From: Podarcis cretensis
Lineage: Eukaryota
Assembly: GCA_951804945.1 (NCBI GenBank)
Contig: OX638154.1
Coordinates: 67,952,001 to 68,016,000 of the forward strand
DNA: 64,000 bases
Reading direction: 5' to 3'
The number at the start of each line of letters is the position of its first letter. The first letter of the stretch is position 1. Below are positions 2,537 through 59,667 of the stretch, piece by piece. A program made the translations under genes and the position numbers. The notes beneath the pieces were generated by a model that saw only the letters and a list, made by a program, of their open reading frames with translations, searched no databases and had not been told where the DNA came from.

Positions 2537-3308
2537 ATTTCAGTCCTTTTTTCTTCCTGTGCCAGGACTGTGGGCAAGAACCCTAAATTGTGGCAACATT
2601 TTGAAATTTGCAATCCCTTTGAGGGCAAAAAAATAGGTTTCTATGTAAAATACAAGTGTCAAGGCTTTGAGAGAGACAAGTTAGTTGGAGTGAAGAAAGA
2701 CCAAAGCAAAGAAAATGAAAACCAGGAACCGCACACTTCGGACAATTTCTTTGTCCATTCATTAACTAATCTTATTTCAGTGCCTTTGGGGTTTTATTTT
2801 TTCCTCGTATATAATTTGGGATTTGCCTACCACTCAGAAAAGAAACACCTGACCAGTCTCTCTTTAGGACAGTTATAGATTTTAAATGCAAGCACCAATC
2901 AGGACTTTGGATTTGCAGTAATCAGAGTAATGTTACTAACCACTGTGTGATTTCAAGGTAATAACTGCCATGATAATAGACATTCTTGCACTCTGATTGG
3001 CTACCAACTATTATTAGCCTACCAGGACAACAAGATCTGCATTTTGCATAGTTATTAAGAAACAACAGTAGAGTGATTATGTAAATCAAGTGCTCACAAC
3101 CAGAGTATAGGGAATTTCCACAGCTGTGGGTGGGAGAAGAGGAATGAATGCACAAACATTCTGGATTATTCATAAAATCAAAGCCATTTTATCAACATAA
3201 TGAAGATATTGAAAATAATTATAAAAATGCCTAGTGGTGTCTCAGTATATGAGAACCACAACCAGCCAGCAAGTCAGCTGCACAAATTAAGCTCTCCTGA
3301 GGTATATA

Positions 3309-4115
3309 CAGTGGTGCCCCGCAAAACGAATGCCTCGCAAGACTAAAAACCCGCTAGACGAAAGGGTTTTCCGTTTTGGAGGCGCGTCGCAAAACGAATT
3401 TCCCTATGGGCTTCCTTCGCAAAACGAAAGCCCATAGGGAAATCTCCGGGACAGCGGGGAAGAGCAGCCTTCCAAAGGCTGGCGGTGGGAGGTGGTCTCT
3501 CCGCCCCACCGCCAGCCTTCGGAAGGCTGCTCTGAAGGCTGGCGGCGGGAGGAGGGCTCTCCGCCCCACCGGCAGCCTTCGGAAGGCTCCTCCGAAGGCT
3601 GGCGGTGGGGCAGAGAGACCTCCTCCCCACCGGCAGCCTTCGGAAGGCTGCTCCGAAGGCTGGCGGTGGGGCAGAGAGACCTGCTCCGGCCGCCAGCCTT
3701 GGGATGGCTGCTCCAAAGGCTGGCAGTGGGGCGGAGAGACCTTTTCCCCGCGCCAGCCTTTGGATGGCTGTCCTGAAGACTTGCGGTGGGAGGAGGGTTT
3801 TCCTTCCCACCGCCAACTTTCAGAATGCTGTTCTGAATGTTGGCGTGGGGAGGAAAAACCCTCCTCCCACCACAAGCCCTGGAAACAGAGGAGAAGCGCT
3901 GCGCGCCTTCCCCTCTGTTCCCGTACCTGTCCTGAAGGCTTGCGGTGGGGAGAAAAGCCCTTCTCCGCACCGCCAGCCTGGCAAGCGGTCTCCATAGGAA
4001 CGCATTAATTAATTTTCAATGCATTCCTATGGGAAACCGTGCTTCGCAAGACGAAAAACTCGCAAGAAGAAAAAACTTGCGGAACGAATTAATTTCGTCT
4101 TGCGAGGCACCAATG
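3309..4115. mobile_element. Non-autonomous Tc1/mariner (pogo/Tigger-like) MITE with an internal ~60-bp hairpin minisatellite
   Basis: TA|CAGTGGTGCCCCGCAAAACGAA ... TTCGTCTTGCGAGGCACCAATG|TA gives TIRs plus a TA TSD. Same ends as 26154-26518. Confidence 0.88.
3465..3980. repeat. Tandem array of ~60-bp GC-rich palindromic units (about 8 copies, diverging rightwards)
   Basis: Repeated ccccaccgccagccttcggaaggctgctccgaaggctggcggtgggg. This explains the overlapping ORFs on both strands. Confidence 0.9.
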
Positions 4116-6379
4116 TATAGAGGATACACACCAACAAACTCAAAAAATATGCCAAATCCTCTTAAATATGGTGAATGTACACTCAAAATGACTGAGTCCT
4201 CAGTATGCCGAATTCAAAAAATGCCTATGAGCAACTTTCTATGGCCTTCTTATCATTGGGGGGGGGGGAAGGATTCTTGAAAGATCAGGACAACCATTTC
4301 ATGGGTTTAGCGATTCATTTTCTAAATGGCCCCCATGCTGTTAATCTAGGAAACTAGAAAATCAATATTACCCACTGCACACTTCAATTTTGCCTGCAAC
4401 TTGGTGTATCTGTGTATCATTCAGACAGAAGGGCACCACATTCAAGATAAAACTTTGCTTTTCAGTGTGTGCAATAAGACTTATGTATAACTAGTCCCAG
4501 GAAGATCACTGACAGATGTAGTATCAATTATCCAGCAACAACAGATACATACGTTCCTCTATTCAAACTCATATCTTTAAACACTGTGCTTAGGGAGAAA
4601 ATACTAACTGGGCTTTCAAATAACATTCCCATGATCTTCAAAACAGTTGCTCTACAAACTAGAAGAAATTCTGAAAATTGCACTTGGCTGCAGCTGCCCG
4701 GAACATATAAAATTACTATAAACAAAATACTAATGGGGAAAATATGGTTTTGCCTTTTTTCAATTTACTTTGGACAACTGGCAGCATTTGGGGTATAGCC
4801 AATATACCCCTCTCTCTATATTGTCATTCCTTTTTTTTTCTGACGGCAATAAAATCTTTACTAAAAATTCTGTGTGAGTGTGCACACACACGCACATATC
4901 AGTTTCAAGACAGGCATTTTTATAGGGTGCTATAAAAATCAAAATGAAGCTTTTAATTAGGTTTTTTAAAAATAAAATGACTATATATTCATTAGAAGTA
5001 ACTATTTACATTAATGTCCTTGCTCTGCATTCCTGAAACCTAATCGGTCAATTTACTTTCAGGCTATTAACACATTTAGTTGCTTTAGAGATAAACAGAA
5101 TGTATTCTAACATAAGTGTCCCTAAAACAATATTAAAACGTCTATCATTTATTTATTAAAAAAAATCTGTATTCATTAAAAATCAGTGATTTACACCAAC
5201 CATACACAGATACAATCAAAACAAGGTAAGAATTTAAAATCAGAGATCAACTATTGTCTGTTAGAGAAAGATGTTTTCTTAATTGCCTGCATAGATTTGG
5301 TGGCATGGAAAAGTTTGCACCAAATATTTAAAGGCTTAAAAAGAAGGCACCTGCCTGACAAGTCTCCTTATCACAAGCCCATGCAACTCTGATCTCCACT
5401 GATATTTTTTTTAAAAGAACAAGTTCAGATGTACCGTACTTTCTAGTTGATGAGCCTTTTCAGTCAAATGAGCATCTGTTGCCTAAATGCCGCATGAATG
5501 AAGAGTCCGTTAATCTTGAAAGAGACTCCACAACCAAAATTGCTCATACTGCTGTATGAAAACCCTCTGGAGGTGCATTTCAGCATAGCAAATGCTCACT
5601 AATAATCAAGAGACCCACAGAGAGTTTATGAAATCTGAGGACTCCCAGTGACTGAATTATGCCTCAGAACGCAGAATTATTCATTTGGGCAAGTACAGCT
5701 GGTTTAAATTATTTAGGCGCGACACCCCACAATATATCACTAAACTTTCCATATAACATTTTGTATATTTAGTTTATTTACAACTTTCGCAAAATATAGA
5801 CTTAATGAAGTCTTAGCAGCAGCAGCTCTCCACAGTGTACTAATATTACAAGATCTTGCCTGAGGCCTGCTACATTCCCACTTGCCGCCACAATTATTTT
5901 GGCAAGGGACGCAATTTATTTTTAGACTAATATAAGCTACTGCTGCTTTTTTCAAATATGCCCCCATACCCTACAGATGCCAGTCTGAGGGAAATGTCTT
6001 AATGTAAGCAATTTGTTCCTTTACATTTAAATACATTATCACTCACTACTGTAAATCAACATGGAGAAAAACAGCTTATAGATAAAGCCTTTGACTGGTC
6101 TCGCCAAGAGCTGAGGGGCAGGTTTTAGGCAGGGACTTCAGAACAAGATAAACTCTGCTTCACCAGAGGGTTATGACTGGGAAATAGGCATTGTCCCATA
6201 CCCTAAACACTTTGTTGAAATGTGAACTGTTAACTGATTAAATGCTCTTCAGTTAATTAACTTTCTTGATTTAAATCGATTAATGCTATGACAGCAAATA
6301 CCTTTGACACCTCTGGTTCTATAACTGTATTCATTTTCATACCAAAGTTTATTTGTGAGTGCAAGAATCGAGTGTAGAA

Positions 6380-15289: not shown

Positions 15290-18200
15290 TACTCCAGAAC
15301 AATGTTTTTTTCATATACTCTTTAGCACAACCCCATTCTTTTAATAATTTCTGGTCCAATTGTCCCCTTATGAATGCTGTGAGTCTTGCCAGATTTCTGT
15401 ATTCACAAAATTTAATTTGCCAATCTTTTAATTTGCCAATCTGATGGAATTTTCCTCCCTTTCCAGGTTTTTTGCTATAACCATCCTGGCAGCTGTTGTT
15501 GCATATAGGAATACTTTCCTTTGATTTTCGGGAATATCATTTGTAATTAAACCTAAAAGGAATGCCTCCGGTTTTTTACTGAAAGATATTTTAAACATCT
15601 TTTTGAGTTCTTCGTAAATTTCGTTCCAGAATTGTTTAATAGGTCGGCATTCCCACCACATGTGAAACATTGTTCCTATTTCTTTTTTACATCTCCAACA
15701 GGTATTCGATTTTAATTTGTAAATTTTAGCCAATTTTACCGGCGTTAAGTACCATTGGTACACCATTTTCATAAAATTTTCTCTTATTGTATAACATGCC
15801 GTGAACTTAATATCATATTTCCATAATTTCTCCCATTGTTCCAGCCGAATCACATATCCTATATCATATGCCCATTTAATCATAACTTTTTACTTCTTCA
15901 TCCTTTAATTCCTATTCTAATAATAAATTATACATTTTGGATATATTCTTTTTTGAGTTTTGTAATAATACTTTTTGTAATTTTGATTCCTCTTTTTCAA
16001 ATCCTATTATTTTATCCTGATTAAATATTTGTGCAATTTGGTGATATTGTAACCATGTAGTACAGTATTGGGTCACCTCTTCATATGGTCTTAATTTTAA
16101 TTGGCCCTGTTCTTCCTTTAGGAGCTGCTGGTATGTCACCATTCTTCCTATAGTATTTTTCTTTTTAACCGATATTACTTCTAATGGTGAGACCCGCCAT
16201 GGGGTTTTCAGTTCTAACAACCTTCTATATCTCACCCAGACCTTGTATATCTCACCCAGACCATTTCTAATTACGTGGTTTAGAAATTCTTTATGTACTG
16301 CCACTTTGTTATAAATTAGGTAGGCATGCCAACCATATCTGTTGTTCCATCCCTCCAAGTCCAAAATGTCACTGTTATCCAATTTGATCCAATCCTTGAT
16401 CCAAGTAAAGCATGCCGCATTGTGATATAGTCTCAGGTCTGGGAGTCCGAAACCTCCCCGCTCTTTTATGTCGGTTAATAATTTATGTTTGATCCGTGGC
16501 TTTTTGCCTTGCCATATAAACTTTGTTAGGTCCGTTTTCCATTTTTTAAAACAATCATATTTACCTATTATGGGAATCATTTGAAAAAGGAACAAGAGTT
16601 TTGGTAAAATATTCATTTTAATAGCCGAAATTCTACCCCAGAGTGTTAAATTCAATCTTGTCCAAGTTTCCATTTCTCTTTTTGTATCTTCCCAATTTTT
16701 TTTATAATTATCTTCAAACAAATTTATATTTTTCATTGTTATTTGTATTCCTAAATATTTCACTTTTTTTACAATTTGTAATCCAAATTTTTCTACCAGT
16801 TCCTTTTTCTCTTGATCTCCCATGTTTTTTACCATGAGTTTCGTTTTTTCTTTATTCAAAGCAAAACCTGAGACCCTTCCAAAGTTTCCCATTTTTTCTA
16901 GAGCCTTTGCTATGCTTTCCTTTGGGTTTTCCACCATTAAGACTAAATCATCTGCAAATGCCCTTATTTTGTATATTTTCTCTCCTAGGGATATTCCATT
17001 TATTTCTTGATCCAGTCTGATTTCTTGATTTAATATTTCCAAAACCAAAATGAATAATAATGGTGAAAGTGGGCAACCTTGTCTGGTGCCCTTCTGTATT
17101 TTAAAATAATCAGACATGTCATTATTTATTATTATATTTGCTTCTTGTTGTTCATAAATTGCTTTTAGCCCTCTTGTAATTTGGTCTCCCATGTCCATCT
17201 GGTCTAATAATATTTTTAGAAATTTCCATGATACTTTGTCAAATGCCTTTTCCGCGTCCACAAAAACAAAGGCTACCTTCTTACTCGGTTTCATGTCTAA
17301 ATACTCAATCATATCAATCACTGTTCTTATATTATCACTCATTTTCCTGCCCGGCAAGAACCCTGCCTGCTCTTTATTTATGCAATCCTGCAAAACTGTC
17401 TTTAATCTTGTTGCCAATATTTGTGCATAGATCTTGTAATCATTATTTAGTAATGATATTGGTCTATAATTGGTTATAAACTCTTTATTTCGTCCTTGTT
17501 TTGGGATTACTACTATGTGAGCCTGTTTCCAGGTGTTGGGAATCGTCCCGTCTTCTAATATTCTATTTAAGAGTGTCTTCATAGGTGATAATAATGGTTC
17601 CTCTAATTTTTTGTAATGTATTGTGGTAAGACCATCTGGACCTGGGGATTTTCCCAGTTTCATCTTAATTATCGCTTGATGAAGCTCTGTCGTGGTTATT
17701 GGGGAGTTTAGATCTTGAATCTTTTCTTTCTTAATTTTAGGTATATCCTTTCCACATAAATACTCTTTTATTTCATCCTCTGTCTCATTTCCTGCTTTAT
17801 ATAGCTTATTATAATATTTTATAAAGCACTTTTTAACTTCTTCAGGATTATCTAAAGTTCTCCCTTCTTCCACTATTTTATCAATCACTTTTTCCTTTTG
17901 TCTTTTTTTTAATTGCCAGGCTAGCATCTTTCCGGGTTTATTTGCAAATTCAAACGACCTTTGTTTCATCTATTTAATATTGTCCTCAATTTCACTATTT
18001 AATATTGCTGAAGCCTCGGTTTGTAATATTTTTAGTTTTTGGTTTATTAATTCATTTTTTGGTTGTTTTGTTAATAATTTTTCATTTATTCCTATTTCTT
18101 TCCTTATTTGTTCTAGTTTTTGCTCTCTGTTTCTTTTCCTTATTGCACTTTGTTGTATGTAAAAGCCTCTTATGAAAGCTTTACTTGCATCCCATATTGT

Positions 18201-19035
18201 CCTGATGTCTGTATCCTGTTCTTTATTTAATTCAAAAAATTCTTTCATTAGTTCTTGCACTTTTTTCACAATCTTTTCGTCATTTAATATTCTTTCATTA
18301 AGTCTCCATCTTTTATTAGTTTTCTTGTATTCCTTTAATTCTAATGTGACTGGGTTGTGATCTGTAATAATTTTGGTCTGTATTTCTGCTTTTTTAATTT
18401 TAGTTGTTAAGTTATTTGATACCCATATGCTGTCAATTCTGCCGGCTGATTTTTTTACTTCCGAGAAATGTGTATACTGTCTTTCTCCTGGGTTTTTATA
18501 TCTCCATGTGTCAATCAAATTTAAGTTTTCTACCATCTGAAAGAAGGTATCTGGGAGTCTGCCTTTTTTTGATTTTCTTTCTCTCTCTGTCCTTTCTAAT
18601 TCTATTGATGTGACACCATTAAGGTCTCCCATCCGAATAATTTCCTCTTCTATAAATTCCAGTAAATTAGCTTCTACTTTCCTGAAGAATTCTGTTTTGT
18701 TACCATTCGGTGCATAAACTCCTACTATAATTAAATGTTCTTTACCTTTTGCTATTTTTACCCCTAATAATCTACCTTCATCATCCTTAAAGATTTTTTT
18801 TGCGTCTAGTTTAGGGTTCACATAGATCACAATTCCCCTTTTCTTTTTTTACATCTGATATAAATTCTTGACCCAATCTCTTGTTTTCTAAAACCCTTCT
18901 GTGATTTCTAGTCACATGGGTCTCCTGCAAGCATATGATATCCCATTGTTCTTTCCTCAATACATGTTCTATTTTATTTCTCTTCCTCTTATCATTTAAA
19001 CCGTTAACATTCCAAGATATAATTTTTAGATTCAT
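15290..19035 (-). pseudogene. L1 ORF2p (APE endonuclease, reverse transcriptase, C-terminal Cys/His knuckle), disrupted
   Basis: SWNVNGL, CLQETH, GVYAPN, GDLN, RIDSIW and TDH (endonuclease). KSPGPDG, YRPISLLN, QGCPLSP, FADD and YLG (RT). CWRC...HMWWEC. Frameshift at ~18840, stops at 17970 and 15912, further frameshifts at ~15887 and ~15470. The 3' boundary is approximate. Confidence 0.95.
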
Positions 19036-19130
19036 TAATCTTTATTTATTATCTACAAAGGTTTCATTGAGTAAATAAAAGAAAAAAGAAAAGAAAAAGA
19101 AAAAAACTCAGAGATTTTAGGATTTTGATA

Positions 19131-20171
19131 TTATGTTTCTTCCAATCTCCCCCCCCCCCTTGATACCCGCTTGTCTCTCTGTGCTTCTTGTGGCGTCTGC
19201 GTTGTTTCCTCTCGCTCCAATGTCGGATCTCCAGTTAGTTCTTTTTTATACTTCCTCCAGAATTTTCCCAGCTCGTCTACTGATCTAAAAGTTTTTCTTC
19301 TGTCCTTGTATGTGAAGGTGATGCCCTCAGGGAATTCCCACCGGAATCTAATCGAATTCGTCTTGAGTGCTTCTGTTACTGTCTTATAGTTCTGCCTTTT
19401 CTTCAAAATTCTTTTTGGGATTTCCTTACATATTTTGATAGGCCTATCTTCTATTATTAACTTCGCTTGTCCTTTTTGATGTAATATTTTGTCCTTTAAA
19501 AGTCTTGAGTTGAAAAAAATTAAGCAATCTCCTGGCCCTTTATAAGTGTCCGATCTTTCTGATTTGATCCTGAAAATTTTATCAATATCCAATAGCATCT
19601 CTTCTACTTCTACTCCCAACCAGTTTGCAATCTCCTGTGATAGTTTCTCTTGAATTTGTTCATCATAAGTTTGTGGTACGCCTCGGAAGCGGAGGACCAT
19701 CTCCTTCTGACGCATCTCCATCAATGATAAATAATCTAGCAGCTCTTCATGGGCTCTCTTTAAGTCGTTTATTTCTTCCTTCGTTGAATCTTATGATTTT
19801 TTAATGTCCTTATTTTCAATTTGCAATTTCTTCGTCATTTCCTCTTGTTTGGTGGATTTACTCTTGAGTTCTTGTACAGATTTATCCAGTTCTTTATTCT
19901 TAAGTGAGAGGTCACTTATTTGTGTTGTTAAGTCTATTATTAGCTTTGAGTCTTGTTGGATGTTGCCAGCTAATATGTCCAGCTTATCATTCAGGCTCTT
20001 TTCCATCCCCATTATAAGATCTTTTATGTCAGCATTGGGGTCTGTTTCAGCTGTTGATTGTCTTCTCACTTGTAGACCTGACCCAGATGTCAGTGTAGTT
20101 TGGGTATTTTTTAGAACCCATATTTGTCTTCTTCCTTTTGGTTCTGATCTAGATGTCTTTATTTCAATCAA
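19131..20171 (-). pseudogene. L1 ORF1p (coiled coil, RRM, CTD) with one in-frame stop at 19791-19793
   Basis: The heptad-rich N-part and the LRFRGVP...IDKIFRI...PGDCLIFF...FRWEFPEGITF part are in the same frame. The true start codon is uncertain. Confidence 0.85.
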
Positions 20172-22027
20172 GAATATATATATTCCTAAAACTTTGAAAA
20201 TGCTCTGTTTATAATTTGGTCCTTTTATTCCATCTGTTGGGATTGAAAGTCAGTTAGGATTCCGGTGGTTTACACTATATCATTACCAGTTCATCTCAAA
20301 TATTTAAAAAAAAATTAAAAAATCAAAGTTTTAATATGAATTTAGTTAAATATTTTGTTTTATTTTAATTACTTTGGCAGTTGTCAGAGAAAAATTCCTT
20401 CGCAGTACTTAACATCCGTCTTAAGAACTTATTTTCTAGAAGCTGAACTTGGTATTTCAGGTATTCCTTCATGTATAGCTAGTTTTCTTTATGGTTGTGC
20501 TTCAAGCCTGTGTCTTAGCAGCATTTTTAAAAATTATGGGAGTAATTTTATTTTCCGCCACTAGGTGGCGCGATTTTCCAATTTACTTGTGAGGTGGTCC
20601 TTCTTGTTTTGTTTCTCTAGCCTCTCTTTGTTGCAGTGACTGTTTCCGCCACTATTCTTCTTCCGGCTTTTTCCCTTCTGAGGGCAATGACTCACACTTC
20701 CCCCCCCAGCGCCATTTTCACCAACTGCTTTCTTCCTTATTACCGTCTTTTCCCTTCTTTTCCCTTCTCCTTTCTCTCCCTTCGTATATCTTTTCTTCTT
20801 CCCTTTCACTTCCTTATCTTAATCTTTATCTTCCCACCGCTGCCTGGTCTTCAAATCTTTTCTATTCCTTCTCTTTTCCACTGTCTCCTCCACGTTCCTC
20901 CCCCTCCTTTTTCTTTTCCACTCACCCTTTGTTTTACGCTGATCTCCTTCTTAATGGCCGCTGCTTTGTTGTCCCCGCTGCTGCTGCTTGTTATTTCAGC
21001 TCCTTGTCTCTCTCAACAGAGCGTCCCCCTGTAGAAGCAGGTACTCAGTGAAGTGAAGGCCCAAAACAGGTGTTGACCATTATGTGAGCTGTGCACAGGT
21101 GGTCTGAAGCGAGCGAGCTACCACCATTCCTGTGGAGCCTCTTTTTATTGAGACAAATATGCAAGCTAGGCAGATACATTTTTGGGCTGCGACCTTTACA
21201 TATCTTCCGTCCCGAAATCGTGGGGTGGTACAAAGCTATTTTGGCACCTGTTCCACAGCGTCATTTTCCCCTTGCACAATGTATGACGAATGGAGACAAA
21301 AGGTCTCAGGGAAAAACTTACAGACAGGACACCGCTGACTCTGAGACCGCAAAAGGTCAGACATAGGGGACGATGTTCTAGACAGCCATGACTTGTCTGA
21401 GGGGGAGTTTTTCCTGCACCCCAGGGTCACGCATGCAGGCAGACTGCGGCTGCCTGCTGGTGGGGAAGTGTGCTCCCTCCGGACCCCACTCCCCACTCCG
21501 CAATATCCCTACACTCAGTATGTCTCAGTTTTTATTTTCTGCCTCTTTACAAGGCTTATTTTCCACAACTTGATAAGTCTCAGAACGCTGAAGCTCCTCT
21601 CTCCATTAGCTTTACTGTCCTTTATAATATTAAGTTAGTCCGTGCTCCTTTTATTTAAATTTAAGCCAGCGTTATTGCCTTCTTGCTTCAGGAGTACTCT
21701 TGATTTTACAGTTTTAGTTTGGAGCAGCCTGGTGCTTTCTCATTCGGGTCTAAGGGGCGTCTCACGGTCGGGTGTGCAATCTTTCTGCGCTGAGGTTCTT
21801 CCACCTTCCTCCACTTTTTGTGCTGGAGCGGCAGAAAACCCCTTTATGCGCTGCTTGGATCGGTTTTCTTCAGTCTGGAACCTCCTCTCAGACCTCTTCA
21901 GGGTTTGCGTCGCCCTCGCTTACCCGTCTTTTTATCCCGTATCCGTGATTGGGAGTGCTCTTACTGCAGCAAAGCGCTTTCCCTGACCGGACGCTGAGCG
22001 CACCACACCAGGAAGTCCCGGCTATAG

Positions 22028-27109: not shown

Positions 27110-27940
27110 CAGTGGTACCTCGGGTTACATATGCTTCAGGTTACAGACTCCGCTAACCCAGAAATATTACCTCGGGTTAAGAACTTTGCTTCAGGATGAG
27201 AACAGAAATCGTGCAGCGGCAGCGCAGTGGCAGCAGGAGGCCCCATTAGCTAAAGTGGTTAAGAGTAGACGTCAAGAACGAATTACCGTATTTTTCACCC
27301 TATAGGGTGAAATGTGTGTGCGTCCTATGGGGTGAATGCAGGCTTTCGTTGAAGCCTGGAGAGCGAGAGGGGTCGGTGCGCACCAACCCCTCTCGCTCTC
27401 CAGGCTTCAGGAAGCTATCCGCAAGCCTTGGGAGCCTGCGGGAGTTCCCGCCGGGCTCCCACAGCTTGCAGAGAGCTGCCTGCATCCCGAAGCCTGGGCG
27501 CGCTGAGCAGTCACGCCCGGGCTTCGGGTAGCTCTGCGCAAGCCACGGGAGGCCTCCCACGGCTTGCGGAGAGCTGCCTCTATCCCGAAGCCCAGGCGCA
27601 CTGAGCAGTCGCGCCCGGGCTTCGGGTAGCTCTGCGCAAGCCGCGGGAGCCCTCCCATGGCTTGCGGAGAGCTGCCTCTATCCCGAAGCCTGGGCGCGCT
27701 GAGCAGTCGCGCCCGGGCTTCGGGTAGCTCTGCGCAAGCCACGGGAGGGCTCCCACGGCTTGCAGAGAGCAGCCTGTTCTGGGGGCTGGTGTTGGGGGAA
27801 GCTCGGGCTTCCCCCGCCCCAGCCCCGTGCCTGGGGGGGAAATAATTTGTTTTTCTTTATTTTCCCTCCCCAAAACTAGGTGCGCCCTATGGGCTGGTGC
27901 GCCCTATGGGGCGAAAAATACGATAATTACTTAAACGATG
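27110..27940. mobile_element. Tc1/mariner MITE (CAGTGGTACCTCGG family), interrupted by a nested element
   Basis: Left TIR CAGTGGTACCTCGGGTTA. The body is the reverse complement of 56387-56622. It is split at gaatTA, and the right TIR is degraded. Confidence 0.75.
27286..27923. mobile_element. Tc1/mariner (CCGTA-TIR, Tc2/pogo-like) MITE with a 98-bp double-hairpin tandem array
   Basis: TA|CCGTATTTTTCACCCTATAGGG ... CCCTATGGGGCGAAAAATACGA|TA. Units start at 27538, 27636 and 27734, with a longer variant at 27421. Confidence 0.88.
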
Positions 27941-38500: not shown

Positions 38501-38549
38501 AGGTATACATTCCACGAGAACAATTACTCCACCTGTGGTCCTTTAATCT

Positions 38550-40045
38550 GGCAGATGAACTGGCAGATGTGATCTCAGAACCACTGGCAGTCATCTTTGA
38601 GAATTCCTGGAGAACAGGCGACGTCCCGGCAGACTGGAGGAGGGCAAATGTTGTCCCTATTTTCAAAAAGGGGAAAAGAGAGGACCCAAATAATTATCGC
38701 CCAGTCAGTCTGACATCAATACCAGGGAAGATTCTGGAGCAGATCATTAAGCAAACAGTCTGTGAGCACCTAGAAAGGAATGCTGTGATCACCAATAGTC
38801 AGCATGAATTTCTGAAAAATAAGTCATGTCAGACTAACCTGATCTCGTTTTTTGACAGAATTACAAGCCTGGTAGATGAAGGGAATGCAGTGGATGTAGC
38901 CTACCTTGATTTCAGCAAGGCATTTGACAAGGTGCCCCATGATATTCTTGTAAAGAAGCTGGTAAAATGCGGTCTTGACTATGCTACCACTCAGTGGATT
39001 TGTAACTGGCTGACTGACCGAACCCAAAGGGTGCTCATCAATGGTTCCTCTTCATCCTGGAGAAGAGTGACTAGTGGGGGTGCCACAGGGTTCTGTCTTG
39101 GGCCCGGTCTTATTCAACATCTTTATCAACGACTTGGATGATGGACTCAAGGGCATCCTGATCAAATTTGCAGATGACACCAAACTGGGAGGGGTGGCTA
39201 ACACCTCAGAGGACAGGATCACACTTCAAAATGACCTTGACAGATTAGAGAACTGGGCCAAAACAAACAAGATGAACTTTAACAGGGAGAAATGTAAAGT
39301 ATTGCACTTGGGCAAAAAAAATGAGAGGCACAAATACAAGATGGGTGACACCTGGCTTGAGAGCAGTACATGTGAAAAGGATCTAGGAGTCTTGGTTGAC
39401 CACAAACTTGACATGAGCCAACAGTGTGACGCGGCAGCTAAAAAAGCCAATGCAATTCTGGGATGCATCAATAGGAGTATAGCATCTAGATCAAGGGAAG
39501 TAATAGTGCCACTGTATTCTGCTCTGGTCAGACCTCACCTGGAGTACTGTGTCCAGTTCTGGGCACCACAGTTCAAGAAGGACACTGACAAACTGGAACG
39601 TGTCCAGAGGAGGGCAACCAAAATGGTCAAAGGCCTGGAAACGATGCCTTATGAGGAACGGCTAAGGGAGCTGGGCATGTTTAGCCTGGAGAAGAGGAGG
39701 TTAAGGGGTGATATGATAGTCATGTTCAAATATATAAAAGGATGTCATATAGAGGAGGGAGAAAGGTTGTTTTCTGCTGCTCCAGAGAAGCGGACACGGA
39801 GCAATGGTTCCAAACTACAAGAAAGAAGATTCCACCTAAACATCAGGAAGAACTTCCTGACAGTAAGAGCTGTTCGACAGTGGAATTTGCTGCCAAGGAG
39901 TGTGGTGGAGTCTCCTTCTTTGGAGGTCTTTAAGCAGAGGCTTGACAACCATATGTCAGGAGTGCTCTGATGGTGTTTCCTGCTTGGCAGGGGGTTGGAC
40001 TCGATGGCCCTTGTGGTCTATTCCAACTCTCTGATTCTATGATTC
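38550..40045 (+). mobile_element. CR1 LINE, 5'-truncated (RT domain and 3' UTR), young
   Basis: [52 protein letters not shown] and CVQFWAP. One frameshift in the G run at ~39076-39080. Tail gattctatgattct. Probable 6-bp TSD TAATCT (38544-38549, 40046-40051). Confidence 0.95.
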
Positions 40046-50122: not shown

Positions 50123-51118
50123 TGTCAGGGACTGGCAGGGTGGCAAGGAGTGGCTGGCAGAGGCCACGGGGCCGGATGCTGACCCAGGGAAAGTGGGATA
50201 AAGATTAGGAGGGTTTTGTACCTCCCACCAGGCAGGAGCCAGAGCTGGAAGGAGGGCAGGATGCACCAGGAATGGAGGAAGAGACGGCGCCTGAGAGAGA
50301 GTGGTGGTAGAATCCCCTCGGTCCCTTCCTACCCCAGAACCAGGAAGGGCTTGAAGAGACAGTGTGATGGACTGGCTGGACACAGAGGAATGACGGAAGG
50401 CACTAGCTGAGGAACTCCCAAGGGACAAAGGCTCAGAGCCTAGGGATTAGTGGTGGGACGACAATGAATGGTCACAAGGAGAAGACAGAGAAGCCTTGGA
50501 GCTTCAGAAGCTGAAGAGGTAACAGGGTTTAGCGAGCAGGGAGAGGCTACGGCAGAGAGAAGTCCACAAGCAGAAGCTGAGGTGGAAGCAGGAGAGCAGG
50601 GATGCCAAGAATTCCCCTTCCCCCCGGTCCTCCCAGACCAGGAAGAGGAAGGAGCAGAGACAGGTGTGTCGGTGTAGTCTCAGATTGCTTGGGAATGACC
50701 GGGGATGTGTGAAGGAGATTTAGGCAGCTATGGGGAGGCAAGGGCCACTGAGCAGGCCTTGTTTCTTCTAATACAGAGTTAACTTCACTTATTCCGCGTG
50801 ATTTATTGTTGGCTGGCTCCCTGGCAAGACAAGCACAGCAGCAACCTCTGTGTACGAGATGTCATAGGTTACTTCTGTGCGCCCCATCAGACAAGGGTAC
50901 TTAATTTGGGTGGAGACATGGTTACACTGTTGCTGCAACCATCCAGTTCAGAAGACAAGCCTGGGGAAGGAATGTCAGCTACTTAGTCGCCAGAAGCGTA
51001 TATGCGTGTTCAGTGCACCTTAGGAGCTACTGTAGGTATGTGCTTTGTCAATAAAGAATGAAACTACCAGTCGTTTGTCCATCTTGTGATGTGTGCGCTC
51101 GGGAAATTATCCTTGAAA
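50123..51118 (+). mobile_element. Solo LTR (outer), interrupted by a nested LTR
   Basis: Starts TGTCAGGGA and has AATAAA at ~51050. The sequence is continuous across the nested insert. Right end approximate, TSD not found. Confidence 0.6.
50363..50826 (+). mobile_element. Solo LTR (inner), same family as 59057-59667
   Basis: TG...CA termini flanked by AGACAG / AGACAA. Shares tgtgat..ctggctgga, gaagctgaaga.gtaacagggtttag and gagttaacttcact with 59057. Confidence 0.72.
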
Positions 51119-52218
51119 ATGAGAATGGAGATCATTACAGGCTTTTATTTTATTTATTTTTACTTGATGCAGAGAATTGCACACACAGGAACTTTCATTC
51201 GCATGCCTCAATATTTCAAGGAACTTTCACACTGCATCATGGTTTGTCTCTTTGCTAACAACCCTGGAAAATGCAGATGCAGAAATTCAGTTGGTGCTCA
51301 TACCCGATACCCTAGATATACACCAAAATTCATTCACATAATCTCCACGTTCAATGGAATTAACACATGATAAATCAATTTACAAATGGAATGCTAAACA
51401 GGCAAGTTAAACCAAAGGAGTCACTTTGCTTGGCTAATGAAATTTAAAAGGGGCACGAAAATAAATGAAGCAGTATATAAAAAGCAAAGAATGGCAACTT
51501 TCAAAAATCAATAATATGTTTTGTTGTATACCAGTGGGAGCACAAGGATATTCATAAGCTAAACTGCATAGAGATCACAAGTGTGTGTTGCTCAACACAG
51601 TATAAATACTGGGCTTATATAAACACTCTTCATCAGCTAAGCTAACAAGTTTTCAAACCCTAACATAGTTAATCTAATTGAGTATTTCTCTAGTGAACTG
51701 AGGTTTATTAAATCTTAAATGCAATCTTATGTAACTATCTAGCTTCTGTGCTGTCCCTATGAAGAGGAATCCCATTTGGGAGAAGAGGGGGGAATAAGAC
51801 AATCACTATGCCGTAAAAAGACTACATTAGTTGTTCTTTATGCGTTTGAAAGCAACTTTTCCCCTCAAGATGTCACTGAGTGGCTGTCGAAGAAGAGCAG
51901 ACTTTGTATCTAAAATTGAGATCCCTCAAGAAACAGTTACCTCAATTGTGGCAAGAATAAAATGATTTCCCCCAACCCTACCCAGTTGTCTGATTTCCCA
52001 TTTTGTTTTTGAGCTTCATTTTCCTATCCTATGCTTAGGTGTCAAGAGGTCTGGCAAAAAAATAACCCAACTTCCACCACAGGGCAAACAACTGCTTGGA
52101 AACTAATGTGTGTTAAACACCCCAGCGCCCATGATCTAAGCAGACTGGCAGTCCTTCAGAATTGCAATTCATTTTGTTTGTTTTTAAATGGAAATATAGC
52201 ATAGGTCTTTCATGTAAT

Positions 52219-52475
52219 TGTCGCTGACTGGTTGAATGCAGAGGAATGATGGGGAACCCCCAAGGGGGGGGGAAGCTGTGGAACCCCCAAGGGGGAAAAA
52301 GGCTCCGAGCTAGGGGATTGCTGCAGGGATGGCAATGAGTGGTCAGAAGGAGAAGACTGGAAGGAGGTGTCAGGGCTTAGTGAGAGGGGGGATTCTGTGG
52401 CAGAAGCTGAAGCAAGAGAGGAAGGAGACCAGGAGGCAGAGATGAGTCCAGCTGGAGAAGCAGCAAGTCCAGCAG
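52219..52475 (+). mobile_element. Partial LTR (5' part) of the same family
   Basis: tgtcgctgactggttgaatgcagaggaatgatgg...caatgagtggtcagaaggagaagac homology. Confidence 0.65.
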
Positions 52476-52685
52476 GTTATTTTCTCCCTTCCAATGAAAA
52501 TGAACACATACACACACAGAGAGAGAGAGCTTTAATCATTCCTCTTAATTTGTTCATTTTGTCATATTCTAAGAGGGGTGGGGAACCTTCCCCCCCCCTT
52601 AAGGTCTGCTTTCCCTTAGGGGTTATCTGTCACTGGTCACATGCTAGAGTGGGTGGGGACAGAGTCACAAGTGAGTGGTGCACCC

Positions 52686-52850
52686 ATAAGAAAAGCCCTG
52701 CTGGACCTTCGAGTCTAGCATCCTGTTCTCAAAGTGACCAAGCAAATGCCTCTAGGAAGCCCACAAGCAGAACATGAACTCTCAAACTCAAACTCTCAAA
52801 CTGCTTGAGATTCCTAGCAGCTGGTTTTCAGAAGCACACTGCCTCCAAAC
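52686..52850 (-). mobile_element. CR1-tailed SINE/LINE 3' fragment
   Basis: cataagaaaagccctgctgga...tctagcatcctgttctcaaagtgacc. Confidence 0.5.
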
Positions 52851-54572
52851 CTCTTTCTTTCCGCTACACCTTTTCTCTTTCTTTCTCTACCGGGCTAATT
52901 GTTTGTTTTACGTGCACCCGAGTAGGGAGAAGCAAGGTGGGCACAACCAGCGCACTCACATGCAAACACTGCCATTATAGGTTGCCTTCTGTGTCTGTGA
53001 CACAGAAAAACAGGGCATAGATATTTTTAGTAAATAAATATTACAGGTGTCCAGTTTTTCGGGGGGCCCCCCAACCATTAGAATATAAGACACGTTACTC
53101 TGCAAATCCTGTAGCAATGAACACGAAACCAGTTCAACCATATCAATCTAGCAGTGTGTGAAGGCATTTTGGTTATTTTCAGACTGGCAACTAACTCTAA
53201 CATTGTTTTTCTTTTCCACATTATAACCTAATGCTGCAAAGTAAATTAAAAACAGGAACAGTTATCTACAGTATCCAAATGTACTCAAAATCTAACCAGT
53301 CCCTTCATTTCCTTTTAAAGCTCTTGGGGTTCCTTCTCTGTCATTCTCATCAACTCATTTCCCTTGACTTTTTGATATGCAAATTCCACTCCACAATATT
53401 AATTGTGAAATGGTATTTGTTCTATTGATAAAATTGCTGCTCCTCACAGGATTTCTTCCCCATTGCTATTATATGTATGGTGCTGTATACAGCAGCTTTG
53501 CAAAGCCAATTAATTGCTAATCAGGAGAACAGGCAAGACAAATACCTCTGACACAGATTACAGGAGAGTCAAGCAATATTATCAGTGTTTAATACATGCA
53601 CGCTTTTAATAACACTTTTGCTACACAAGATATTTGCTGCACAAATATTTGCTGCCTAAGTCTCAAGTACCACATCCCCCAAAGTTCCATGTTCTTCAAC
53701 TAAGTTTGCTCCAGTCACAAAAAGCAGGCTGATGGGAAGCTACGGATATGGCAAATATCACCAAATGTGAAAACACAAGTGCCATAGCATTATGTGTTAT
53801 GCTTAACAGCATATTCATTTACTGTTCAAAACCAAACTATTATCTCACGGTTTACTGCAAGTTCATTATCCAATATAGCTGTAGAACATTTTTTGTGTGG
53901 GAGATTTAAGTTTTCAAGACTAGATCAAACCATTTTCATGGTAGCTGCTGCTATCAGCCAGTAGTTCACAGGATACAGTCTAAGGGCACACAAGGCCAAG
54001 GTGAAATTCTATTCACTAGATTAGACACCCCAAACTTGAAATGGCAGGATCCCACTCTGCTTCTTACATGTCAATGGGTACATCTCTCAAGACCTTAAGA
54101 GCCTCACCAGTCACTCACCAGTATGGCAGTTCTGGCCATACCAAAAGGTAAAGGAACAGCGAATTCCTGAGGATTAGGAGCAGAGGCAACCTGCTTTGGC
54201 TTGGTCCACTGCAGCAAGACACCTACCTTAGCACAATCACTCTTTATACTGCCATCCAGATCTGGTGCTTCAGAGGGAAATTCTGGCATGAAACCAGAAT
54301 GAATTTCCGGAATCCAGAAATTTAGTTCTATCACCTGTGCTTTGAATCAAGTTTACGGGTTTTTATCTCATCACATGCTGTTAATTAGCTAACCAACGCC
54401 AGGGTATCTATGTTATTGCCAATACCATCTTGTTAATGGTCCCTATAACTATTTTGCTTTAATGTAATTGGCACTATCTGTTCTTTATACAGTTTCTTCC
54501 CCCACGCCCCAACCTTACTCTTCTCCATTACATACACACACAAACACAAATTGTTTCCTTATTTGGAACTGT

Positions 54573-54654
54573 ACTTCATGCGTCTGAAGTGGACTCTAGT
54601 CCTTGGAAACTTATGTCATAATAAATTGTTGGTCCTTAAGGTGTCACAAGACTC
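54573..54654 (+). mobile_element. Penelope-like element terminal-repeat relic
   Basis: cttcatgcgtctgaagtggactctagtcc..gaaacttatgtcataataaattgttggtccttaaggtgtcacaagactc matches the recalled sauropsid Penelope end pattern. Confidence 0.6.
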
Positions 54655-54796
54655 AAATGAAACATAGAATTGTAAAATCATTGTGTGTTTCTTTCCTTTC
54701 CTTGTGAAACTAAACATTTTTGCCACCATTATTTAATGAACAGTTTCTAAGTTAGGTTGGTCCCTATTTCCGATAAATTTGCTACTAGGTACTACT

Positions 54797-55156
54797 GACG
54801 CAGGTGGCGCTGTGGGTTAAAGCCTCAGCGCCTAGGACTTGCCGATCGAAAGGTCGGCGGTTCGAATCCCTGCGGCGGGGTGCGCTCCCGCTGCTCGGTC
54901 CCAGCGCCTGCCAACCTAGCAGTTCGAAAGCACCTCCGGGTGCAAGTAGATAAATAGGGACCGCTTACCAGCGGGAAGGTAAACGGCGTTTCCGTGTGCG
55001 GCTCTGGCTCGCCAGAGCAGCGATGTCACGCTGGCCACGTGACCCGGAAGTGTCTCCGGACAGCGCTGGCCCCTGGCCTCTTAAGTGAGATGGGCGCACA
55101 ACCCCAGAGTCTGTCAAGACTGGCCCGTACGGGCAGGGGTACCTTTACCTTTACCT
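54797..55156 (+). mobile_element. Sauria SINE, CpG-rich (young) subfamily
   Basis: Intact A/B boxes (ggtggcgctgtggg, ggttcgaatcc), (ACCTTT)n tail, and TSD TACTACT(GA) on both sides. Confidence 0.92.
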
Positions 55157-56386
55157 TACTACTGATCTGATCAGATAATGTTGCTATTGTACTACAGGCT
55201 CTTTCCTCATAACCTCCAAATGTGACAGGGAGCTTATGCTTGAAAGGAGCACCAACTGAAATTTTCTGCTTGGCACAACTGCCATCTTCTGGTAAGACGT
55301 AGACATCTCTCATTCCGACCTAAAGCTTTTAAAGCAGATGGTAAGGAAAATGTACAATTTCCTTCTAATTACTAGACAAGAGTGTCATCTCTGGGATATG
55401 TGGCCACCAAGTCCTACTCTCTACAGCCTAAGTTTGGAAACAATTGGGTGATGCCTCAAAAATAAAAATAAAACACACACCCCATTTGGTTTTTTAAAAA
55501 CGCTGTCAGAGCATCTTTCTTTCAGGCATGACCTTGACTGATTCTAGAGCCTTACACGCTCTAGATTTGATCTTGAAAATGCTAAAATACTGCTAGTATT
55601 TTGTAAAATATAACCTTGGGCACCTTTTGGCAGAAAGGCAGAATCAGCATTTTAAATTACGCTAAGTCCTGACTCACATTTTTTAGAAAAAATAAAAATC
55701 AATAGCCGGTTTCAAACTATTCATGTTCATGGAAGTTTGACCTATAATCCAACACAGTATGGCAATTAATATGCAATTTCATAAGATTTGAAAGATAATT
55801 TTCAATTTATTGATGTGATAATTACAAGTGCTACAGTTGTACATTAAGGAGACATGTTTTCAATAGTGTACCAGAAAGTTCTCACTACAAACTGTAGATT
55901 AGTTTTATAACCTTAATTAATTTTGCTTTTCTTGAACTGACCACATTTCAACTGATGATTTCTGTTATTGTGATTGTCTACTTCAAGATCAAGCAAGCAA
56001 CAGACAAAGCATAAAACAGAAAACAAAAAAGATAGGGGTGGTGAACCTGGCAATGAAAGTTTCCAACTTAGGCACCAGAACTCACAACTAGTATCAGAGT
56101 CAAGCTGTGGCTCAAATACATCACAGTGTTTTCCAGGATGAAAAGAAAATGAAGGAAAATGTGTCATCGAGTATGAATAGACTTCCTATATGGCTTGCCT
56201 CTGGTCAAATACTCTAATGGCTTACACCACCTGCTTGCTGTTCACCAGTCCATATTTTAAGCTGCCAGCGAAGAACAACACATTTTGTCAACATATACAT
56301 ATATTCAGGCTCTGCTAAAGAGGGAGAGAGTTAAATTACTGAGAGACAATCTTTGAAGCCTACCTGAAGTTATACAAAAGGACGTG

Positions 56387-56622
56387 CAGTGGTATCGCTG
56401 GTTACGTACTTAATTTGTTCCAGAGGTCCGTTCTTAACCTGAAACTGTTCTTAACTTGAGGTACCACTTTAGCTAATGGGGCCTCCCGCCCTGCCACCTG
56501 AGCACAATTTCTGTTCTCATCCTGAGGTAAAGTTCTTAACCCGAGGTACTACTTCTGGGTTAGCAGAGTCTGTAACCTGAAGTGTTTGTAACCTGAAGCA
56601 TTTATAACCAGAGGTACTACTG
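56387..56622. mobile_element. Tc1/mariner MITE (CAGTGGTACCTC family)
   Basis: CAGTGGTATCGCTGGTTA ... TAACCAGAGGTACTACTG|TA, with internal (taacctgaa) subrepeats. Confidence 0.82.
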
Positions 56623-57969
56623 TATTTGAAAAATTATTACAAAGTTACAGCACTTTGCCACATAGATCAAAACACTCCCTTTTCATTTTTAAAAGAAAGT
56701 TTCAGAAAAGTTATCGAATGCGAGTTAAAATTAGAAATAGCTTTCTAATAAAGTTCATCCAACAGAAACTCACATAGAAACACAACCACATAGACAGAAT
56801 CCACATCTTAGAAAGCAGATTCTACAGTTCAAATCTTGTGAATGTTGCGCAGAAGCCACTATTTGGCTTTTCTAAATGTACAGATTCAGGAAGCCCGTGC
56901 ATGTCTGAAATCATTATTCCTCTCTACATAAAGTTTACAGTATGCATAAGAGCAGCGTGGGGTTTTCCTGTTGCAGAGTAAGTGGTTTGGACTAATGTTT
57001 GCACATAGGGCCCAGAAATATAGTCCAGAAGCTTCACGTGAGTTCAGATATGGCTATATGACTGCTAACTGGATATAAGTATATCATATTACAGGGGATG
57101 CCCTCTTTGGACTCCAAGGGGGAGCCTTCTTGCAAGCTGGAGGCACAGCAGGGCTTTGCTGAGGCTTTTCAGGTCTCGTCCCACCCCCCACTTCTGGGTT
57201 TCTGGGGCCACATGTATGCATGGTCATGTGTGAATTGAACACGTGCAAATGGGGGGGTGCCTGTATGTGAAGAGCTTTCCTGAAAGGGTTTGAGAACAAA
57301 CATGGTAGAGAAAATACAGAGTGGCGAGGGAGAAGGACCTCTATTGCTTTACAGGAACAGTTTACTCAGCAGCACCATAGTGAGATATGCCTGCTGATGC
57401 TAAAGGAAAATGCAGCATGTGATTGATTCAGGAAACATTTGAGTCCGAGCTCAGAGGGAGGAACCAATTAGGAGAGCAAGTAGAGTTTGAAAAACAACAC
57501 AAGTATCACAATGGGAATACAAACTCCACATCTATTCAAAATTAAATGAGCAGATTATTTTTGAAAACATTCATCCAAGTGGAATGTCAACTTTTCTCCC
57601 ACAAGTTTGTGCATGTCTATTATTATCCTATTCATCATACTTCTAAATCTGTTTACTATACTGTTTGAGACTGCACGCGCACACGCACACAGAGGCAATT
57701 CTTATACACGCATATGAAGGATGATATATTGGTATTAGCAGTCTACATTAATGAAGAACAGCCCTGCCCCTCCAATATAACTTCATGTAGTGCAATACAC
57801 TCCCCCTCCAGAGGTTACACAATTTATGGGCTGTAGCAACAAGGTGCAAAAATGCAACATTAAGAAAGCTGCTGGAATCCCTAGTCTGAATTCTGGTGCT
57901 TTAATGAGCTGAGCTACAGCTATAAACAATCCTAGAATTGCTTTTAGCAGAGGCTTCCTGGGCCAGAAA

Positions 57970-57970
<1 letters not shown>

Positions 57971-58005
<35 letters not shown>
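57971..58005. repeat. (TG)17 microsatellite
   Basis: Read directly from the sequence. Confidence 0.97.
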
Positions 58006-58007
<2 letters not shown>

Positions 58008-58590
58008 ATCCCCAATTCAAGGTCCAGACATTACCAGAAACTTGATATATACAGCAATACAGATCTTACCAGGAACAATAATGTCCTTCTTGGTGTGTTT
58101 ATATTTTGCCTTCCCTTCATGGGACTCAAGGCACAGGATTCCCAGGTGATCTCTGGCCCAGACCCTGAGCTGACCCAGACATGTTTAGCTTCAGCAAGAT
58201 TATTACATCATGTGTCTTCAGGCTACAATGTGGACCCATTAACACCTGCATAGCCATACCTTTTGGATGGGGAAACCACATAATTGACACTCTGGACAAA
58301 AAAGTCATAGCCAGGAATTCCTCATATCGGCATTCTGTCCATTTTCAAGCTCAGAACAGCTTTCGTGGAGATGATTCCCACATACTGAATAAAACACGGC
58401 CGTTATGTTCCTCAGCCTCTATTCTAGCCTACGCTGACTGAGTAGAAAAAATGGAGAAAGGTCTACACTCTATAAGCTTGCCCATTACCAAATTGGCAAT
58501 GGCTTTCTTCTCTCAGTCTAATATTACTATGGAACAGGGATATCTAACCTTTGAGCCAGTGGGTACATTGGAATTTTGAGAAAGTGCTGT

Positions 58591-58846
58591 GAGCACCAGT
58601 GTGGTGTAGCGGTTAAGAGCGGTAGATTCGTAATATGGGGAACCGGGTTCACGTCTCCGCTCCTCCACATGCAGCTGCTGGGTGACCTTGGGCCAGTCAC
58701 ACTTCTCTGAAGTCTCTCAGCCCCACTCACCTCACAGAGTGTTTGTTGTGGGGGAGGAAGGGAAAGGAGAATGTTAGCCGCTTTGAGACTCCTTCGGGTA
58801 GTGATAAAGCTGGATATCAGATCCAAACTCTTCTTCTACTCTCTTC
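58591..58846 (+). mobile_element. tRNA-derived SINE with MIR-like core and L2-like tail
   Basis: gtgtggtgtagcggttaagagc A box, gggttc B box, gggtgaccttgggccagtcac core, and gttagccgctttgag...(TCT)n tail. Confidence 0.8.
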
Positions 58847-59056
58847 ACCAGGCCCCAAGTGGTTGCTGTGGAGGGGTGGCATAACACAAAATGGCTGTCA
58901 TGTGGTAGGGGATAATGACTACCAAATGTCAAGAGAGCCACATGAAGGTGGGAAATCCTAGAATTCAATGAACTAAGGATACATTTAAGAGGTTACGTTC
59001 AATGTAGGAATGGCTAGACTTGAGTAAGAAGAGCAAACAAGTCTCTCATGTACTAT

Positions 59057-59667
59057 TGTGATAGCCTGGCTGGATGCTGTGGAGTGGTGGGTGGCACCAG
59101 CTGGGGAACCCCTAAGGAGCACCCCAGGGGAAGAAGGTTCAGAGCCAAGGGAATTGTGATGGGACAACAATGAGTGGTGAGAGGGAGAAGAGGAAGCAGG
59201 AGGGGGTGTTGGAAGCTGAAGAAGTAACAGGGTTTAGTGAACATGACGAGGCTGTGGCAGGGAATAGTCCAGACTCAGAGGCAGAAGCAGAGGCTGGAGT
59301 AGAAAGAGGTTAGGAGCTGGAGGGGCAGGCTGCTGAAGAAGCCAGAGAGTCTCCCCCGCCTGCTGCATCCAGCTCCCCTCCCCCTGGGTCTCTTAGGACA
59401 CACAGAAAAATCAAAAGCGCAGAGTTTAGTTGTGTGTGAACAGTCCGAGACTGCTTGGGAAAAGCCCGGGAGAGGAGGAGCCTTAGAGGGTGGTGGAAGG
59501 CAGGGACTTTCATTCCTCACAACTCCCTTATTGGAGCAAGACCTACTGGGGAAAGCTGCTGGAAACACTAGGCCTGTGGTGTTTTGATTTCTTGAATAAA
59601 GAGTTAACTTCACTGACACCATGGTTGGATTTGGTTGCTAACCTACGGTTGACTCCAGCTCCTGACA
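59057..59667 (+). mobile_element. Solo LTR, 611 bp (Gypsy-like by TSD length)
   Basis: TGTGA...TGACA termini, AATAAA at ~59595, and 5-bp TSD ACTAT / ACTGT. Confidence 0.8.

What the first reader, a model, noticed from the sequence alone, without database searches (positions are those of the whole stretch)
50123..59667. Diverged solo LTRs appear to share a decayed protein-coding frame: Trp/acidic N-part plus SPRTRR...RRSxRLL basic tail
Seen: in four LTR copies the frame starting 4 nt inside the left end reads (R)DWQGGKEWLAE (50123), MDWLDTEE*RKALAEE (50363), ADWLNAEE*WG (52219) and IAWLDAVEWWVAPAGE (59057). Downstream, the family copies give GSEP..WDDNEWS.GE and EAEEVTGFSE, then a Pro-rich stretch. 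Three copies end in YPRTRKGLKRQAQQQPLCTRCHRLL (outer, in frame once the nested LTR is removed), SQTRKRKEQRQVCRCSLRLL (inner) and SLRTHRKIK...SPRLLGK (59057). The terminal RLL uses different synonymous codons (AGG TTA CTT, AGA TTG CTT, AGA CTG CTT), and several stops sit at expected Trp codons. Each copy needs frameshifts. Known: RRSxRL resembles the HMGN nucleosome-binding core RRSARLSA and basic tails of Gypsy integrases; Trp-studded acidic tracts typify activation domains; ORFs overlapping U3 exist in retroviruses (HIV nef, MMTV sag). Inference: this LTR family encodes a small chromatin-tethering or transactivator-like accessory protein in U3, or a long Pol tail running into the 3' LTR.
Basis: partly seen in the sequence, partly recalled or inferred. 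Interest (0 to 1): 0.7.

Follow-up and report, generated by a model that had tools for sequence, protein, structure and literature searches.

The report
Lizard retrotransposon LTRs encode integrase tail
These repeats are old leftover ends (solo LTRs) of lizard jumping genes, and the decayed reading frame in them is likely the tail of the element's integrase, which in young related elements runs straight into the LTR and ends in a short basic motif predicted, but not shown, to grip nucleosomes.

Summary
The frame is real. The four copies belong to two old, related solo-LTR families (A, B; TG…CA ends, 5-bp target duplications). In A, changes shared between copies show purifying selection (pN/pS 0.26, against 0.55 for private changes), strongest in the Pro/basic end (0.08). 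In B this test is inconclusive.

It is most likely not a separate accessory gene. Young Tf1/sushi-type Gypsy elements in this genome carry Pol past the chromodomain, over the PPT and through U3 in the same frame (117–210 codons, acidic then basic, one family ending RRSARL). A related old family (E) shows the same in-frame junction in 4 of 6 loci. No internal region was found attached to A or B, so their link is inferred.

Pol running into the 3′ LTR is known in plant chromoviruses. A U3-long tail with an HMGN/Dsup-like RRSxRL end, in addition to a chromodomain, was not found in 9 literature searches. Nucleosome binding is untested.

The parts
50123..50362 (+). Family B solo LTR, 5' part (U3; Trp/acidic head to PRTRK..KRQ), interrupted by a family A insertion; frame shifts twice
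50363..50831 (+). Family A solo LTR nested in B, internally deleted; no target duplication recognisable; RLL at 50682-50690, stop TAG 50721-50723
50833..51106 (+). Family B solo LTR, 3' part; RLL 50866-50874, stop TAA 50902-50904 in a TATA-like TACTTAA, AATAAA further on; end approximate, flanks ttcta/ttatc (3 of 5)
52219..52480 (+). Family A 5' fragment (head and acidic part only; 3' end approximate)
59057..59667 (+). Complete family A solo LTR, TG...CA, 5-bp target duplication actat/actgt
59058..59486 (+). Decayed U3 reading frame (likely Pol/integrase C-terminal tail): Trp/acidic, Pro-rich, basic; RLL 59448-59456, stop TAG 59484-59486; broken by stops and two shifts
59595..59600 (+). AATAAA polyadenylation-type signal of the LTR

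Best explanation
The window's repeats are old solo LTRs, likely of chromoviral (Tf1/sushi-type) Gypsy retrotransposons, and their U3 frame is likely the decayed C-terminal tail of Pol/integrase, whose terminal RRSxRL-type motif would tether the integration complex to nucleosomes.

Shown: in young relatives the pol frame runs through the chromodomain, the PPT and the LTR's TG and ends at or near the TATA-like box. Shown: A and B have a stop-free frame of the same phase and layout, and A's is under purifying selection. Inferred: A and B were built the same way. Inferred: only the 3' LTR copy is transcribed and translated, so solo LTRs carry the frame as a silent relic. Predicted: the tail is disordered, stays on integrase after proteolysis, and binds the H2A-H2B acidic patch through two arginines (about 0.45 for this last step alone).
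For: Young family C: chromodomain in frame with LTR offset +1 in 9 of 12 elements; the other 3 shift at the poly-G PPT. One 1544-aa ORF (gag, PR, RT, RH, IN, SH3, Chromo by Pfam) ends 117 codons inside the 3' LTR. 36 of 41 distinct C LTRs are open to the motif position, 29 with RRSARL/RRNARL. Family D: 2 of 3 in frame, 210 codons in the LTR. Family E (VRDW..EEWW..SPR[TS]RR): in frame with a chromodomain in 4 of 6 independent loci.

A: shared pN/pS 0.26 (0.16-0.47) vs private 0.55; ratio 0.48 (0.33-0.70); the other + frames give 1.15 and 1.43. This holds without CpG changes, with transitions only, with transversions only and with other reference copies. Pro/basic segment 0.08, ratio 0.22 (0.12-0.35); no signal downstream. 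A and B mostly stop 11-13 codons after RLL (14 of 21; 7 of 14). 5-bp duplications in 11 of 16 A and 6 of 12 B copies with both ends.

Chromodomain + G-x-x-V-M + acidic tail also occurs in proteins named from Rhineura and Salvator, and with terminal RRSARL in one unnamed ENA protein. HMGN and Dsup bind the acidic patch through RRSARLSA / PPRRSSRLT (PMC12487698, passages).
Against: No A or B LTR was found attached to an internal region. A-E homology is weak (4 of 29 at E<1e-3), and A/B-C or -D is undetectable. B's selection ratio (0.57, CI 0.32-1.09) and E's (0.74, CI 0.39-1.46) include 1. C tail dN/dS is 0.30-0.49 between the L126/L101 subgroup and the others but 0.5-1.2 among the others, on few sites. 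E has no RSxRL (0 of 26) and D ends in a different basic motif, so the motif is not universal. Only 2 of 92 single-chromodomain database hits have RSxRL downstream (0.47 expected by shuffling). Full RRSxRL survives in only 3 of 29 A and 5 of 17 B copies. Shared patterns in quartets are not independent events.
Confidence: 0.78

Rival explanations
1. Same Pol tail, but the conserved basic end is a nuclear-localisation or DNA/RNA-binding signal rather than an acidic-patch anchor (a sub-case of the best explanation).
For: Two basic clusters about 10-15 residues apart (SPRTRR..KR and RRSxRL) resemble a bipartite NLS (recalled). D and E have basic ends without RSxRL. The Ty1 integrase C-terminus holds a small targeting domain (search listing and abstract start only, PMC7459421).
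Against: The non-basic S and L of RRSxRL recur in A, B and C, which a plain NLS would not need. C has P-RRSARL-K, close to HMGN and Dsup.
Confidence: 0.35
2. A separate accessory protein (nef/sag-like) made from the LTR ATG or a spliced RNA, acting as a transactivator.
For: ATG at codon 2 in 22 of 29 A and 39 of 41 C copies; very acidic, Trp-rich head. Gene models in public sets start at this ATG (P0010, P0032).
Against: No ATG in B, D or E; no stop between chromodomain and LTR in C, D, E. The selection signal is weak in the head (ratio 0.58, CI to 1.17).
Confidence: 0.08
3. The frame is a by-product of GA-rich promoter DNA and shared ancestry, never selected as protein.
For: Long open runs occur in all three frames of single copies; B and E selection tests are inconclusive; U3 also serves as promoter.
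Against: Frame-specific lack of shared stops in A, B and E; A pN/pS 0.26 against a neutral expectation of 0.65-0.8; continuous Pol ORFs in young elements.
Confidence: 0.06
4. A and B are LTRs of another LTR-element group (non-chromoviral Gypsy, BEL or ERV-L-like, also with 5-bp duplications, recalled) that carry a similar coding U3.
For: No internal region found; weak homology to E only.
Against: Same TGTCA(T/G)GGACTGG start, Trp/acidic head, SPRT motif and frame phase as chromodomain-linked family E.
Confidence: 0.08

Closest known systems
Plant chromoviruses, CRM clade group A (CR motif / CHDCR in the 3' LTR)
   Same: [quoted passage not shown]
   Different: CRM group A has the CR motif instead of a chromodomain (PMC6317226 passages). 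Here a canonical chromodomain is kept upstream and an acidic-to-basic low-complexity tail fills U3. No Pfam match for the A tail.
Plant Reina-clade Bingo1-4 and Bingo7
   Same: Chromodomain upstream of the PPT, ORF extends into the flanking LTR.
   Different: The section read gives no length, selection or motif for the extension; plant type II chromodomain.
Tf1/sushi chromoviruses (V-clade: Sushi-ichi, Amn)
   Same: Family C has DUF4939 gag, SH3_Tf2-1 and Chromo domains, and a self-priming complement between R start and PBS (group traits).
   Different: No U3-encoded tail is described in the passages read. A and B membership is inferred from LTRs only.
HMGN / tardigrade Dsup nucleosome-binding motif
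   Same: RRSxRL with arginines in the anchor positions, in a disordered context; C reads APRRSARLKA.
   Different: A and B have RRSLRLL / RRSHRLL-type ends without the upstream Pro; no homology outside the motif; binding untested.
HIV nef / MMTV sag (U3-overlapping ORFs; recalled)
   Same: Coding sequence overlaps U3.
   Different: Those are separate genes from their own RNAs; here the frame is continuous with pol.

Membership tests
LTR retrotransposon solo LTR | TG...CA ends, target-site duplication, AATAAA near 3' end, dispersed copies | tested here: met
   3950 first-look candidates for A; 5-bp TSD 11 of 16 (A), 6 of 12 (B)
Chromovirus, Tf1/sushi group (young family C, same genome) | Gypsy-order pol with C-terminal chromodomain | tested here: met
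   Pfam
Chromovirus, Tf1/sushi group (young family C, same genome) | Self-priming instead of tRNA PBS | tested here: met
   sequence after 5' LTR is complementary to GCGGGAGCAAC about 25 nt after the TATA-like box; priming itself not assayed
Chromovirus, Tf1/sushi group (window families A and B) | Internal region with chromodomain integrase attached to the LTR | tested here: inconclusive
   none found; only weak LTR homology to chromodomain-linked family E
Chromovirus, Tf1/sushi group | RT/IN phylogeny with Sushi-ichi / Amn | not tested
   no reference sequences were fetched
CRM group A | Pol frame extends into 3' LTR | tested here: met
   families C, D, E; inferred for A/B
CRM group A | CR motif in place of a chromodomain | tested here: not met
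   canonical Chromo kept in C; tail has no Pfam hit
HMGN-like acidic-patch binder | RRSxRL core | tested here: met
   34 of 41 C, 3 of 29 A, 5 of 17 B, 0 of 26 E; decayed in all window copies
HMGN-like acidic-patch binder | Acidic-patch-dependent nucleosome binding | not testable with these tools
   needs a binding assay
Retroviral U3 accessory gene (nef/sag) | Own start codon and RNA, separate from pol | tested here: not met
   no ATG in B, D, E; frame continuous with pol in C, D, E; RNA not examined directly

The most novel reading that the evidence does not exclude
Squamate (and perhaps wider) chromoviral integrases carry a second targeting module encoded by the entire U3 promoter: a disordered acidic tail ending in an HMGN/Dsup-type arginine anchor that docks the intasome on the nucleosome acidic patch beside the chromodomain. 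Thousands of solo LTRs would then be ready-made coding cassettes, some drawn into host SCAN zinc-finger gene models.
Probability: 0.4. Interest if true: 0.72.

Novelty: new variant of a known kind. Interest (0 to 1): 0.5.

Why it matters
How vertebrate Gypsy elements reach and choose chromatin is little studied (my knowledge). A conserved RRSxRL at the integrase end gives a small, direct test and would add a retrotransposon to the short list of HMGN-like acidic-patch binders. It also shows a promoter (U3) doubling as coding sequence over its whole length, which lets solo LTRs be read as fossils of protein selection even when no internal region survives. If the motif is only an import signal, this is a modest annotation point about chromovirus structure.

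Tried and rejected
PPT+LTR pattern searches for A/B with an internal region: 0 hits, 18 matches, 32 matches; only family E hits had pol upstream. The purine-rich flank of L145 and the L239-L244 cluster looked like internal regions; the latter is an intron of a clustered SCAN-type gene family.

The A-tail profile against longer proteins found no polyprotein, only two SCAN-domain models; the E tail found nothing; the ESM Atlas gave no usable hit. Complex prediction of the C tail with H2A-H2B gave no answer (score 0.02); the cited paper also reports that AlphaFold 3 fails on HMGN2-nucleosome. Sequencing runs: no RNA holder listed; contigs of guessed-RNA runs cover the C junction, one with 31 or more letters on both sides, which is not taken as evidence.

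Single-copy long open frames as evidence: rejected. Indel lengths: multiples of three are commoner in the frame region than downstream, but the pairwise counts are not independent, so no weight is given. Three look-ups in earlier findings returned nothing.

Full report
Setting. The window lies in a 1.5-Gb, 51-contig genome. A young element from it matches a UniRef protein named from Podarcis muralis at 93%, so the host is likely a lacertid lizard (inference).

Observation. The copies fall into family A (50363-50831, 52219-~52480, 59057-59667) and family B (50123-50362 plus 50833-~51106, split by A). Best genomic matches are only 73-82% identical for A and 69-82% for B, so both are old. Where both ends were found, 11 of 16 A and 6 of 12 B copies have a 5-bp target duplication with at least 4 of 5 matches. 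Nucleotide profiles link A and B (11 of 17 and 15 of 29 copies at E<1e-3; shuffles 0). Uninterrupted B copies read PRTRR..LKRQAQ..RRSxRLL across the place where A inserted.

Is the frame real? I used natural copies only: 29 of 54 A loci with a start and a 3' anchor, 17 B (7 dropped for lack of an anchor; duplicates and the window copy left out), 26 E. In A, stop frequency is 1.4 / 2.8 / 5.5% in the three frames, and columns with a stop in at least 40% of copies number 0 / 3 / 7. B gives 0 / 1 / 7. E has only its terminal stop in this frame, against 8 and 5. In quartets of A copies, private changes give pN/pS 0.55 and shared (2:2) changes 0.26, ratio 0.48 (0.33-0.70); the other + frames give 1.15 and 1.43, and one reverse frame shadows the signal as expected. 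Neutral expectation with transition bias is 0.65-0.8. The result survives removal of CpG changes, transitions or transversions alone, other references and either subgroup. It is concentrated in the Pro/basic end (0.08; ratio 0.22, 0.12-0.35) and absent downstream. B (0.57, CI to 1.09) and E (0.74, CI to 1.46) are inconclusive. Long open runs in single copies are not frame-specific. A and B mostly stop 11-13 codons after RLL, at a TATA-like box.

What is the frame? A search for sushi-type gag gave young full-length elements, most with LTR pairs 96-99.9% identical. It continues about 117 codons, acidic and Pro-rich, to ELQRLRAERRRELVAPRRSARLKA, stopping just before the TATA-like box; 9 of 12 elements are in frame and 36 of 41 distinct LTRs are open. 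Family D does the same for 210 codons with another basic end (2 of 3). Old family E, whose LTR begins like A and B and reads VRDW..EEWW..SPR[TS]RR, is in frame with a chromodomain in 4 of 6 independent loci. C's primer site is complementary to a stretch just after the TATA-like box, so transcription likely starts after U3 and only the 3' LTR copy would be translated. An ATG at codon 2 exists only in A and C. C tail dN/dS is 0.30-0.49 between the L126/L101 subgroup and the others and 0.5-1.2 among the others. No A or B LTR was found on an internal region; their link rests on shared ends, phase, layout and weak homology to E (4 of 29).

Breadth. Among 150 database hits to chromodomain plus tail, 92 have one chromodomain. 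Proteins named from Rhineura and Salvator show G-x-x-V-M followed by an acidic tail, and one unnamed ENA protein ends in RRSARL; other hits (frog-named where looked up) show the GG-x-V junction without an acidic tail. Only 2 of 92 have RSxRL downstream.

Mechanism. Best reading: a disordered integrase tail encoded by U3. Its conserved end matches the RRSxRL core by which HMGN and Dsup bind the H2A-H2B acidic patch (PMC12487698, passages). I commit to nucleosome tethering at about 0.45, with nuclear import or nucleic-acid binding as the main rival. Binding was not tested.

Known versus new. Pol extending into the 3' LTR is described for plant CRM group A and some Reina elements (PMC3059260 passages; PMC3605345 passages and section 7; PMC6317226 passages). 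PMC3601003 (passages) models Sushi LTRs and has no occurrence of 'ORF'. Nine full-text searches (listings and abstract starts only, apart from the five papers named) showed no report of a U3-long tail or an HMGN-like motif in vertebrate chromoviruses. Repbase notes, subscription papers and supplements were not seen and may hold it. The nef/sag and NLS comparisons are recalled.

Verdict: a real feature, new variant of a known kind, interest 0.5.

Noticed in passing
L239-L244 (G000:C8:0.88-1.16 Mb); P0005, P0006: A family A LTR sits about 30 nt into an intron of a clustered SCAN-type gene family, in phase with the exon. Two Zootoca vivipara SCAN-protein models read through into the A frame (VMDWLGTEEW..), suggesting an insertion shared across lacertids and possible exonisation or a gene-model read-through.
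   Followed up: partly
L131 (family D), about 130 codons before the 3' LTR: Family D Pol has a Trp/acidic stretch (WWDTQPEEEW..VTDWQ) before the PPT that resembles the A/B/E heads; no DNA homology detected.
   Followed up: partly
L235, L238, L260, L052, L043, L233: Several A/E LTRs without pol have ..GGTGA directly 5' of TG, like the PPT end of attached E elements; four were selected by the pattern, so chance is not excluded.
   Followed up: no
G000:C8:14.9-15.7 Mb (L205-L227): Amplified cluster of decayed family E integrase/3' LTR ends.
   Followed up: no
P0100 (ENA, unnamed): Chromodomain, GDTVM junction, acidic tail and terminal RRSARL in a protein of unknown source: the same layout, possibly far from lizards.
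   Followed up: partly
window 15428-20249 (-) and 38503-39970 (+): Long RT-like ORFs, by eye an L1/Tx1-type and a CR1-type LINE (labels recalled, not scanned).
   Followed up: no
window 3306-4122 and 27342-27928: 60-bp and 98-bp tandem arrays with internal inverted repeats inside MITE-like repeats.
   Followed up: no
L121, L094, L116: Rearranged family C elements: chimeric or duplicated 5' LTRs and deletions joining pol to mid-U3.
   Followed up: no
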